This document shows, in pieces, positions 9,001 to 12,000 of a stretch of 15,179 bases of DNA. The stretch is from a virus. Lineage: Duplodnaviria > Heunggongvirae > Uroviricota > Caudoviricetes. The stretch lies in the IMG/VR virus record IMGVR_UViG_2690316346_000009; one strand, given 5' to 3'. Position 1 is the first letter of the stretch; every line of letters begins with the position of its first letter. The position numbers were made by a program.

Positions 9001-12000
9001 TGCTGTGCTCTTTTGGCACTGTCCACAACATTTCTTTCAGGTCCCATTCTTTGATCTCTGAAAGTCTGATCTCTGCCGTTCTGCACCCGAACACAATTAA
9101 CAAGCGCATTAACGCACTGTAATAGGGAGCGAACACATCACCATCAATAGCGCGTAGAATTTCTTTTAGTTCGCTGTTGCTGTGCACTCTCTCGCGGATT
9201 TCTGCTCTCTTACCCACATCAGTAACGATCAAATCGTCCAGGGCGTTGCTAAACGCGTAGCGCCGCCTGCGGCAAAACTTTAGCGCCTGTTTGCATGTCT
9301 GCATGACATGGCCCGCTGCTACTGGTGCTTTTTTTCGTACGCGGTCAAAACATGCGATCCACTGCCTTGTATCACACTTATCAAGGGGAATTGCCCCAAT
9401 ATGGCAAATGATGTGCTTATCCATACGCTGCACCAGCTTTATGTAATCTTTGCGGTTATCCTTCGCGTATTCCTCCAGCCAGTAGTTAATCGCTTCCTTC
9501 ACCGTAACGGGTTTTAGTGCTTCCTGTACTGTGGCGCACAACTCATAACGGGGGTTTTTACCCTCAGCCAGCCATGCCCGGCACAGTGTGCGTTTTTCCC
9601 TTGCGGCTTTCAGCGACAATTCAGGGTAAGCCCCCAGCTTTAACCGCTCTGCGGCAACCTCACGGCCTCCCGTTCGGTACCGGAAATACCAGGTTAATTT
9701 GCCGCCCTTTGAGTGTTTAATCTCCAGCCCGCCCCCGTCGGAGTAAAAACGCTCTTTTTCTGCCTGGACAGCCGCCAATTTTTTTAACGTCGAATCGCTC
9801 AGTTTGTTTAGTGCTTTTCCCACTATCAGATCCTCTTTTCAGTCCTCCAGCCTCAAAAAACTGACCACACAACTGACCACACATTTTGTTGAAGCTCTAC
9901 GAACAACGACGAACAACAACAAACAAGAAAACAGGATAATTTATTGTTTATCAAATACATACATAAACAACCACAAGCAACCCCGAACCACAAAAAACAC
10001 TAAATGAGAAAATACGGGTATTTCTCAGCCTTCACGCAGAAGGGCACCCCGAGTCGTTTGGTTGCGATGATAAATCGCAGAGGAGGATGGTAATGTCCAG
10101 CGCACGCGTTGTAAACGAGGAAAAACGGCAGTTTTACAATCGCGTTAATAAATTATTTGATATATGAATCCAGCACCTTCAGAACGACATCCAGATCTTC
10201 TTCACGTTTTAGCTCATCCCCCTGGTGAACGATGTGTTCCGTCAGATGACCTTTAATCACTTCCCGCATCAGACCGTTTACCGCGCCACGGATAGCAGTA
10301 ATCTGTTGTAAAACTGCAGCGCATTCATGCGGCTCGTCGAGCATTTTCTTGAGCGCCACGACCTAGCCCTGAATCTTACTGGCACGCGCTTTCAGTTTCT
10401 GTTTATCACGGATTGTATGAGACATGGCAACACCTGGTTAACAAGAATATGAAAATATCATAGCACTATTAATCTACTGGGGGGTAGTATCAGGTACTGG
10501 GGGGAGTAGAATCAGATTGCCGAATTAATACTAAGAATTATTATCATGACCGAATTTACAACTCTTCTTCAGCAAGGAAACGCCTGGTTCTTCATCCCCA
10601 GCGCCATCTTACTTGGTGCGCTTCATGGCCTGGAACCAGGGCACTCAAAAACGATGATGGCGGCGTTTATCATCGCCATCAAAGGCACCATTAAACAAGC
10701 GGTGATGCTCGGACTGGCAGCAACTATTTCGCATACCGCAGTGGTCTGGTTAATTGCCTTTGGCGGGATGGTGATCAGCAAGCGCTTTACTGCTCAATCA
10801 GCAGAACCGTGGCTCCAGCTGATTTCCGCAGTGATCATTATTGGCACCGCGTTCTGGATGTTCTGGCGTACCTGGCGCGGCGAACGCAACTGGCTGGAGA
10901 ATATGCACGAGTATGATTATGAGCATCATCATCACGATCACGAAGATCACCACGACCATGGACATCATCACCATCACGAACATGGCGAGTATCAGGATGC
11001 CCATGCACGAGCCCATGCCAATGACATTAAACGACGCTTTGATGGTAGAGAGGTCACCAACTGGCAAATTTTGCTATTTGGCTTAACCGGTGGCCTTATC
11101 CCCTGCCCGGCAGCAATTACCGTGCTGTTGATATGCATTCAGTTGAAAGCCCTGACACTGGGCGCAACACTGGTCGTCAGTTTCAGCATTGGCCTGGCGT
11201 TAACGCTTGTCACCGTAGGCGTTGGCGCAGCAATCAGCGTTCAGCAGGTCGCAAAACGCTGGAGCGGATTTAACACTCTCGCTAAACGCGCCCCCTATTT
11301 TTCCAGTCTGTTGATTGGCTTAGTCGGTGTGTATATGGGCGTACATGGCTTCATGGGCATAATGCGATAACTCAATCCTTTAGGCTTGCATGTTATCTTC
11401 AGCCCAGGATGATTCTTAAATCAGCTATTTCCGCTGACTCTCTGCTCGCTAAGGATGCTTTTAGGGCATCCTTTCATTTACACTTTTTACGAAATCATGG
11501 GATCACTAACAAAATATCGCTTGTCAGTTATATTGTATGGCAGGAAAGATATGCGACTGATATTACAGATCCCCAAAGTGGAGAGTTTATGACCATTAAA
11601 AATAAGATGTTGCTGGGTGTGCTTTTGCTGGTTACCAGTGCCGCCTGGGCCGCACCAGCCACCGCGGGTTCGACCAATACCTCGGGAATTTCTAAGTATG
11701 AGTTAAGTAGTTTCATTGCTGACTTTAAGCATTTCAAACCAGGTGATACCGTCCCAGAGATGTACCGCACCGATGAGTACAACATTAAGCAGTGGCAGTT
11801 ACGTAACCTGCCCGCGCCTGATGCCGGGACGCACTGGACCTATATGGGTGGCGCGTACGTGTTGATCAGCGACACCGACGGTAAAATCATTAAAGCCTAC
11901 GACGGTGAGATTTTTTATCATCGCTAAAAAAAGCCCCCTCATCATGAGGGGGAAATGCAGACACCTTGTTATTTTTTATTATTAGCCACTTGCTCGTCTT

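What the first reader, a model, noticed from the sequence alone, without database searches (positions are those of the whole stretch)
9824..10152. Integrative element junction lies inside the thiM TPP riboswitch aptamer rather than at a tRNA
Reading the minus strand from about 10052, the sequence follows the thiM thi-box aptamer (ACGACTCGGGGTGCCCTTCTGCGTGAAGGCTGAGAAATACCCGTAT) and then switches abruptly at 10001/10002 to element DNA with direct repeats and the P4-family integrase gene. The thiM promoter and half an aptamer would therefore read into int and the coupled 284 aa gene, and thiMD would be separated from its leader unless the element carries a matching 3' half at its far end. P4-family integrases usually target tRNA 3' ends, so a riboswitch as attachment site would be unusual.
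Basis: partly seen in the sequence, partly recalled or inferred. Interest (0 to 1): 0.75.

Follow-up and report, generated by a model that had tools for sequence, protein, structure and literature searches.

The report
Phage satellite splits thiM thiamine riboswitch
A known phage satellite (PICI EcCI224 family) sits at its published 14-bp attachment site, which lies inside the thiamine-sensing riboswitch upstream of thiM and cuts it in two; the site was already catalogued, but I found no paper noting that it is inside a riboswitch.

Summary
On the minus strand, window 10012..10057 matches the E. coli thiM TPP aptamer exactly.

The junction is attL of a phage-inducible chromosomal island. Its integrase is 100% identical to that of EcCI224. 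Fillol-Salom et al. 2018 (Table S1) already list this element's att core, AGAAATACCCGTAT, located "frmR-thiM".

In complete genomes the same 14 bp flank the island on both sides. The 5' aptamer half stays with the thiM promoter at attL. The 3' half, the expression platform and intact thiMD lie at attR. About 1.4% of complete E. coli genomes carry the island (72 to 75 of 5,426).

No occupied locus has a TPP riboswitch above Rfam's threshold, and the element does not rebuild one. The same junction occurs in three E. coli flank backgrounds and in Salmonella.

Non-tRNA sites are normal for this integrase clade, so the "unusual for P4 integrases" argument is weak. The new detail is that the site lies inside the aptamer. 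Folding suggests thiMD translation loses TPP control and stays ON; this is untested.

The window is a scaffold with N gaps and does not contain attR.

The parts
10012..10025 (-). attL copy of the 14-bp att core AGAAATACCCGTAT (3' part of J3-2, the 3' strand of P2, and J2-4 of the thiM TPP aptamer)
   Evidence: The same 14 bp is found at attL and attR of every complete occupied locus. Homology of unoccupied genomes ends at the last core base on the attL side and starts at the first core base on the attR side. It is identical to the att core published for EcCI224.
10012..10061 (-). 5' half of the thiM TPP riboswitch aptamer (P1 5' strand, P2, P3, CUGAGA pyrimidine-sensor bulge). The P4/P5 half is missing.
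   Evidence: Exact match to K-12. Rfam RF00059 scores 20.6 bits here against 71.2 bits for the intact K-12 aptamer.
10087..10115 (-). Sigma-70 promoter-like site (TTTACA-17-TACCAT), the candidate thiM promoter. It now points into the island.
   Evidence: Consensus scan only. No terminator-like site was found between it and int.
9824..10011 (-). Island DNA between the core and int (int-proximal arm of attP). It has tandem repeats TGTGGTCAGT x2 (9860..9881) and GTTGTTCG x2 (9900..9917), which are candidate arm-type integrase sites.
   Evidence: Repeats located. The block 9849..9926 recurs at about 94% identity next to attR in L002 and L003 (alignment A1). The function as arm sites is inferred.
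8603..9823 (-). int, a tyrosine recombinase of 406 aa
   Evidence: Pfam PF13356 (63.6 bits) and PF00589 (62 bits). 100% identical to the integrase of Ecol_224/EcCI224.
7752..8606 (-). DUF6387 gene, overlapping the int stop codon by 4 bp
   Evidence: Pfam PF19924, 109 bits. This exact protein is indexed in 1,489 blocks of the assembly collection, always next to this int in the six places read.
7424..7648 (-). alpA-type regulator/excisionase gene
   Evidence: Pfam PF05930, 58.8 bits.
6091..7423 (-). Start of the PICI regulatory region (ylcI/icd-like region), running to the contig edge
   Evidence: 98.8% identical to L003 (Ecol_224) over window 6091..15128. An N run at 6080..6090 marks the scaffold gap.

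Best explanation
Window 10012..10025 is attL of a phage-inducible chromosomal island (a phage satellite) of the EcCI224 family. Its P4-like tyrosine integrase recombined a 14-bp core in the circular element (attP) with the identical 14 bp inside the host thiM TPP riboswitch aptamer (attB). The island inserted co-oriented with thiMD, inside the operon's 5' leader.

Shown here: the thiM promoter region and the 5' aptamer half (P1 5' strand, P2, P3, pyrimidine sensor) stay at attL in front of int. The 3' half (P4/P5 pyrophosphate sensor, P1 3' strand), the expression platform and intact thiMD lie at attR, 10.6 to 15.1 kb away. The element duplicates only the core, so no functional aptamer remains.

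Inferred: without the P1 5' strand, P2 and P3, the RNA cannot bind TPP. The P1 3' strand stays free to pair with the anti-SD, so thiM translation should be locked ON and thiMD should escape TPP control. Its transcription would then depend on read-out from the island or on an unmapped promoter in the conserved right arm. The host thiM promoter may conversely read into int-DUF6387. Excision would restore the riboswitch exactly.

Inferred: the site is probably used because it is a strongly constrained sequence shared by Escherichia and Salmonella, playing the role a tRNA gene plays for other integrases, and because losing thiMD regulation costs little.
For: - Exact aptamer match and break point.
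- The 14-bp direct repeat flanks the island in L002, L003, L015, L019, L022 to L025 and L027.
- The attR query matches unoccupied genomes from exactly the first core base. 75 of 5,426 genomes carry attR and 72 carry attL.
- The integrase is 100% identical to EcCI224's. The published att core and location are the same.
- Island gene content is int, DUF6387, alpA, icd-like, DUF4222, primase and capsid/packaging genes.
- No RF00059 hit at gathering in 7 occupied loci (L002, L003, L022, L023, L025 to L027). The halves score 20.6 and 35.1 bits against 71.2 intact.
- PGAP annotates 'riboswitch' in empty sites but not in the occupied genomes examined (L002, L003; Ecol_224).
- Element DNA abutting the attR core varies between islands, so there is no conserved aptamer mimic.
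- The same junction occurs in three different E. coli upstream backgrounds (L003; L026; L014 with the empty counterpart L021) and in Salmonella with integrases 67 to 74% identical.
- RNAfold of the attR leader keeps the GGGAAG:CUUCUUC helix, with the first three SD bases 0.75 to 0.89 unpaired.
- thiM is a full-length called gene and thiD follows it (full-length in L002 and L003, cut by the locus end in the others) in all occupied loci that reach attR.
Against: - No attP (circular or packaged form) was recovered from viral contigs. All 9 specific hits were attL-type, so excision and integration are inferred from the att structure and the literature, not seen here.
- The window itself lacks attR, because the contig ends at 6091.
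- No promoter-like site was detected in the attR arm. How thiMD is transcribed in island carriers is therefore unknown, and it could be poorly expressed rather than constitutive.
- SD-accessibility predictions become noisy when longer upstream element RNA is included.
- The promoter and terminator scans are simple consensus matches.
Confidence: 0.85

Rival explanations
1. The insertion is polar. By separating thiMD from its promoter, the island silences or strongly reduces thiMD, so carriers depend on external thiamine or on leaky read-through rather than expressing thiMD constitutively.
For: The only promoter-like site for thiM stays on the attL side. No promoter-like site was found in the last ~1.1 kb before thiM in L002, and a terminator-like hairpin lies at L002 34997..35022.
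Against: thiM is full-length, and the thiM leader is undecayed, in every occupied locus examined that reaches attR. The island is co-oriented with thiMD, so read-out is possible. The retained leader folds into the SD-open form. The simple scan misses weak AT-rich promoters, which abound in the conserved right arm.
Confidence: 0.2
2. The element supplies a substitute 5' aptamer half at attR, as tRNA-targeting islands restore the tRNA 3' end, so thiMD remains TPP-regulated.
For: Rfam gives a sub-threshold full-length alignment at attR (35.1 bits, E = 2.3e-5), in which element bases are placed in P1 and P2.
Against: The score is below gathering (54.3), several pairs are non-canonical, P3 is absent and CUGAGA is changed to UAAGA. 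The element bases involved differ between islands (ATTACTAACAGGA, AACTGATAACAAAA, AACTGGTAAAAGTA) with no compensatory pattern. No hit at gathering in 7 occupied loci.
Confidence: 0.03
3. The junction is a chance similarity, an assembly chimera, or a non-specific (IS-mediated or illegitimate) rearrangement rather than site-specific integration.
For: The window is a scaffold with N gaps and IS1 copies at contig edges.
Against: The 46-nt exact match has 0 expected by chance. The junction lies about 3.9 kb from the nearest gap. The identical junction is present in 72 complete genomes, in several flank backgrounds and in Salmonella. It matches a published att core.
Confidence: 0.01

Closest known systems
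PICI EcCI224 (E. coli Ecol_224, CP018948.1 1961620-1972242); Fillol-Salom et al. 2018, ISME J, Table S1 (PMC6092414)
   Same: The integrase is 100% identical. The att core AGAAATACCCGTAT and the location between rcnR ('frmR') and thiM are the same. Nucleotide identity is 98.8 to 99.8% over the shared parts.
   Different: The window copy is seen only as far as a contig edge. The paper lists the site as intergenic and does not use the word riboswitch, in the main text or in the thiM entry of Table S1.
Capsid-forming PICIs (cf-PICI; Alqurainy et al., bioRxiv 10.1101/2022.09.08.507074) at the same site, for example in E. coli SMS-3-5 and O114:H49 90-9280
   Same: The integrase (WP_000513574.1), attL, attR and arms are the same. 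The paper states that four of six cf-PICI attB sites are shared with classical PICIs.
   Different: These are 15.1 kb and carry capsid, protease, portal, HNH, TerS and TerL genes. The window's closest relative is the 10.6-kb classical type.
PICIs at the cspD-clpS site (EcCIIHE3034 type, core ATGATAGTTAT)
   Same: This is the nearest integrase paralogue (66% identity, P0008). It has homologous int-proximal arm sequence and the same int-alpA-DUF4222-primase order.
   Different: It has a different core and targets an intergenic leader with no riboswitch.
P4-type integrases that target tRNA or tmRNA genes (P4 at leuX, CP4-57 at ssrA); from general knowledge
   Same: Same integrase architecture (arm-binding PF13356 plus catalytic PF00589), an alpA partner gene, and a target that is a structured-RNA-encoding, highly conserved sequence.
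   Different: Those elements carry a copy of the RNA gene's 3' end and so restore the gene. Here only 14 bp are duplicated and the RNA element is left broken.
Helper-embedded PICIs (PMC10111431)
   Same: The satellite is inserted co-oriented inside a transcription unit, so host transcription can read in and satellite transcription can read out. Excision restores the target (for the concept).
   Different: The target there is a prophage late gene, not a host riboswitch leader, and the integrase clade is different.

Membership tests
Gram-negative PICI (phage-inducible chromosomal island), EcCI224 lineage | int followed by alpA and a primase/replication module, all transcribed in one direction | tested here: met
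   The window has int, DUF6387 and alpA on the minus strand. Full order is seen in L002, L003 and L022 to L027.
Gram-negative PICI (phage-inducible chromosomal island), EcCI224 lineage | A specific att site with a short direct repeat at both ends | tested here: met
   The 14-bp AGAAATACCCGTAT lies at attL in the window and at attL plus attR in nine related loci. It equals the published core. attR is not in the window.
Gram-negative PICI (phage-inducible chromosomal island), EcCI224 lineage | Size about 10 to 15 kb, with no phage tail or lysis genes | tested here: inconclusive
   Met in related complete genomes: 10,609 bp in L003 and 15,131 bp in L002, with gene lists. The window copy stops at a scaffold gap.
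Gram-negative PICI (phage-inducible chromosomal island), EcCI224 lineage | Induction, excision and packaging by a helper phage | not testable with these tools
   No attP-type junction was found among viral contigs. This needs experiment.
P4-like tyrosine integrase | N-terminal arm-DNA-binding domain (PF13356) plus C-terminal tyrosine recombinase domain (PF00589) | tested here: met
   63.6 and 62 bits, both above the Pfam cut-offs. H-x-x-R (HDFRHT) and C-terminal Tyr candidates are visible by eye. No residue-level alignment to P4 Int was made.
P4-like tyrosine integrase | Target is the 3' end of a tRNA or tmRNA gene | tested here: not met
   No tRNA or tmRNA gene in the window. The target is the thiM leader.
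TPP riboswitch (Rfam RF00059) | Complete aptamer scoring at or above the gathering score (54.3 bits), with P1 to P5 | tested here: not met
   20.6 bits in the window and 35.1 bits at attR of L002, against 71.2 bits for intact K-12. The window holds only the 5' half.

The most novel reading that the evidence does not exclude
The satellite's attB is defined by the ligand-binding core of a riboswitch. Integration would then act as a natural, reversible riboswitch knock-out: carriers (about 1.4% of complete E. coli genomes, and some Salmonella) would express thiMD free of TPP control or under satellite control, the host thiM promoter would feed int expression, and excision would restore regulation. 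Riboswitch aptamers would join tRNA and tmRNA genes as structure-constrained integration targets. I found no paper stating this.
Probability: 0.4. Interest if true: 0.5.

Novelty: already known. Interest (0 to 1): 0.3.

Why it matters
The element, its integrase and its 14-bp att core were catalogued in 2018, so the window holds no new system.

What this analysis adds is that the catalogued "intergenic" site is in fact the TPP-binding aptamer of the thiM riboswitch, and that integration leaves no functional aptamer. If thiMD is indeed deregulated in carriers, these strains are ready-made natural riboswitch knock-outs. They would give a concrete example of a satellite altering host vitamin metabolism through its choice of integration site. 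They would also extend the logic of targeting a conserved structured-RNA sequence from tRNA genes to riboswitches.

It also matters for annotation. Riboswitch scanners miss the split halves, and att-site catalogues label such sites as intergenic.

Tried and rejected
- **Species-representative genomes.** Scans with the integrase and with the 23-nt attL junction found nothing.
- **Viral contigs.** A scan for core plus element sequence gave 10 hits. Nine are attL-type proviruses and one (L016) is an unrelated chance match. No attP form was found.
- **Source genome.** A look-up of the window's 468-aa primase fragment, meant to locate the source genome and its attR, found nothing on record.
- **Apparent duplications.** The tandem duplications (1..1989 vs 1991..3580; 3673..5190 vs 6091..7616) first looked like tandem or chimeric islands. 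I rejected that reading after finding N at 1990 and an N run at 6080..6090. They are neighbouring contigs of a scaffold.
- **Chimeric riboswitch at attL.** A host 5' half paired with element RNA is not supported: Rfam 20.6 bits, E = 0.16, and the attL leader fold has z = -1.49.
- **Element-borne aptamer mimic at attR.** Rejected.
- **O157:H7 leader difference.** It is an unrelated 2.2-kb insertion upstream of an intact riboswitch.
- **Salmonella attR.** Not reached, because the element is longer than the 10-kb flank.
- **Literature.** Searches for thiM or riboswitch together with integrase, PICI or att terms found no paper describing a riboswitch as this att site. Two of these searches were diluted by word-start matching.

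Full report
**1. Observation**

On the minus strand the window reads rcnR (10425..10153), then the thiM upstream region, then the first half of the thiM TPP aptamer. It is identical to K-12.

Megablast of 9700..10400 against 5,426 complete E. coli genomes matches 5,415 of them. In unoccupied genomes the match ends at query base 389, which is window 10012.

Rfam RF00059 scores the intact K-12 aptamer at 71.2 bits (gathering score 54.3). It finds nothing at gathering in the window. The fragment scores only 20.6 bits, E = 0.16.

**2. What the junction is**

Immediately downstream lie 188 bp with tandem short repeats: TGTGGTCAGT x2 at 9860..9881 and GTTGTTCG x2 at 9900..9917. After these come three genes:

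- a 406-aa tyrosine recombinase with PF13356 and PF00589;
- an overlapping DUF6387 gene;
- an alpA gene.

Seventy-two complete genomes carry the whole junction. In O114:H49 90-9280 (L002) and Ecol_224 (L003) the island runs from this junction to a second copy of AGAAATACCCGTAT. That copy is followed directly by CACCTGATCTGGATAATGCCAGCGTAGGGAAGTC…, which is the 3' aptamer half, the expression platform and intact thiM-thiD.

An attR query matches unoccupied genomes from exactly the first core base. Seventy-five genomes carry the attR junction. So a 14-bp core is duplicated and nothing else. This is classical site-specific integration, with attB inside the aptamer (3' part of J3-2, P2 3' strand, J2-4).

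**3. Identity of the element**

The window's integrase is 100% identical to that of Ecol_224. Window 6091..15128 is 98.8% identical to that genome.

Table S1 of Fillol-Salom et al. 2018 (PMC6092414) lists PICI EcCI224 in Ecol_224 as 10.6 kb, att core AGAAATACCCGTAT, att gene "frmR-thiM". The element and its att site are therefore already catalogued.

The same integrase and att module is also carried by 15.1-kb islands with capsid, portal, HNH, TerS and TerL genes, which are the cf-PICI type. This agrees with the cf-PICI preprint's statement that four attB sites are shared with classical PICIs.

**4. Site specificity across backgrounds and genera**

The identical junction occurs with three different sequences upstream of the aptamer:

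- the K-12-like rcnR flank;
- the O157-type 2.2-kb insertion flank (L026);
- a prophage-remnant flank (L014, with its empty counterpart in strain H2, L021).

These are shown.

In Salmonella enterica, integrases 67 to 74% identical (P0002, P0004, P0006) sit next to rcnB. They are preceded by the Salmonella thiM aptamer 5' half, the same core and then TTTCTAACTTAG…, which is homologous to the E. coli element arm.

The next paralogue (P0008, 66% identity) sits at cspD-clpS with the published core ATGATAGTTAT and a homologous arm. Non-tRNA leader or intergenic targets are thus the rule in this clade.

**5. Is the riboswitch restored?**

No. Three lines of evidence agree.

- None of seven occupied loci has RF00059 at gathering.
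- The attR side scores 35.1 bits. Its P1 and P2 pairs are non-canonical, P3 is absent and CUGAGA is replaced by UAAGA.
- The element bases placed in P1 and P2 differ between islands with no compensatory pattern, whereas the rest of the ~260-bp right arm is conserved.

PGAP annotates a riboswitch at empty sites but not in the occupied genomes examined.

**6. Likely consequences (inferred)**

From established knowledge of the thiM riboswitch (from memory, not checked here), TPP binding closes P1 and frees the anti-SD to sequester the SD. Without TPP, the P1 3' strand pairs with the anti-SD.

The attR leader keeps the P1 3' strand, anti-SD and SD but lacks the P1 5' strand, P2 and P3. RNAfold gives the GGGAAG:CUUCUUC helix, with the first three SD bases 0.75 to 0.89 unpaired. 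Translation should therefore be locked ON.

Transcription of thiMD in carriers is unresolved:

- The thiM promoter-like site (10115..10087) remains at attL pointing into int, with no terminator-like site between them.
- No promoter-like site was detected in the attR arm.
- The island is co-oriented with thiMD, so read-out is possible.
- thiM is a full-length called gene in every occupied locus that reaches attR, with thiD following it.

The rival that insertion is polar and lowers thiMD expression cannot be excluded. I give it about 0.2.

**7. The window is a scaffold**

A single N lies at 1990 and an N run at 6080..6090. The apparent duplications are adjacent contigs, with IS1 ends at contig edges (5322.. 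and 15129..15179). The contig with the finding is 6091..15179.

attR is not in the window. No complete E. coli genome in the collection matches the sequence across the IS1/N-gap joins.

**8. Literature**

Searches combining thiM or riboswitch with integrase, PICI or att terms found no statement that this or any PICI att site lies in a riboswitch. Targeted reads of the PICI, cf-PICI, TIGER and HE-PICI papers found none either. The library is incomplete, so this is absence of evidence only.

**9. Verdict**

The system is already known: a catalogued PICI at its catalogued att site.

The residual interest is that the att core is the aptamer core and that integration is a natural riboswitch disruption with an untested effect on thiMD. 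Interest is 0.3.

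Noticed in passing
window 1990 and 6080..6090: A single N and an 11-N run show that the window is a scaffold of three contigs (1..1989, 1991..6079, 6091..15179). The apparent duplications (400..1989 = 1991..3580 at 99%; 3673..5190 vs 6091..7616 at 76%) are contigs laid side by side. They probably come from two related PICIs in one genome.
   Followed up: yes
window 10363..10365 (minus strand; rcnR codon 21): rcnR carries an in-frame TAG where K-12 has CAG (Gln21). The Ni/Co efflux repressor is probably a pseudogene in this strain, which would derepress rcnA. 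One further substitution (A to T in QQIAAIRG) is also present.
   Followed up: partly
window 5322..6079 and 15129..15179: IS1 copies lie at contig edges (IS1 transposase Pfam hit, 5337..5840). The one at 15129 interrupts the yehB usher gene at the position matching L003 6905. IS1-rich, pseudogene-rich content and the absence of any complete E. coli genome matching across the IS1/gap joins suggest a Shigella-like or IS-expanded lineage. This was not verified.
   Followed up: partly
window 3673..5294: A second, divergent (76%) copy of the alpA-to-DUF4222 regulatory module sits on a separate contig. It is about 93% identical to PICIs found at ~3.0 to 3.2 Mb in many E. coli genomes, so the strain likely carries a second PICI at another att site.
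   Followed up: partly
L006 5725..6943 and L007 5549..6863 (Salmonella islands at the same att site): The Salmonella elements carry arrays of four to five C4 antisense RNA copies (RF01695, 68 to 80 bits) interleaved with isrK and c4-a1b1 matches. One (L007/L029) has a Phage_ASH protein. Both also have a second integrase and two ProQ-domain genes further in. Their cargo differs from the E. coli PICIs.
   Followed up: no
L020 6250..8520; L021 1..12590; L014 6292..14743: The DNA immediately upstream of the thiM aptamer is hypervariable in E. coli. There is a K-12-type rcnR flank, an O157-type 2.2-kb insertion, and a prophage remnant (tape measure, truncated integrase) whose homology break lies at the first bases of P1.
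   Followed up: partly
L021 12628..12642 (E. coli H2, empty site): In this lineage the base after the core is T, not C (GTATTACCTG). Identity with attP therefore extends to 15 bp. The P3 loop also differs (TTAAA vs TGCG).
   Followed up: no
L008 2817..2827 (cspD-clpS site): The paralogous PICI at cspD-clpS is also inserted divergently from cspD. Whether it lies in the leader of, and is co-oriented with, the downstream clpS was not seen in the locus and is inferred from K-12 gene order. If so, this integrase clade may favour 5' leaders of host operons.
   Followed up: no
L002 357..432 and 967..1040: Two OrzO-P antitoxin RNA genes (RF02083, 100 and 85 bits) lie near yehL/yehK. They are unrelated to the finding.
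   Followed up: no
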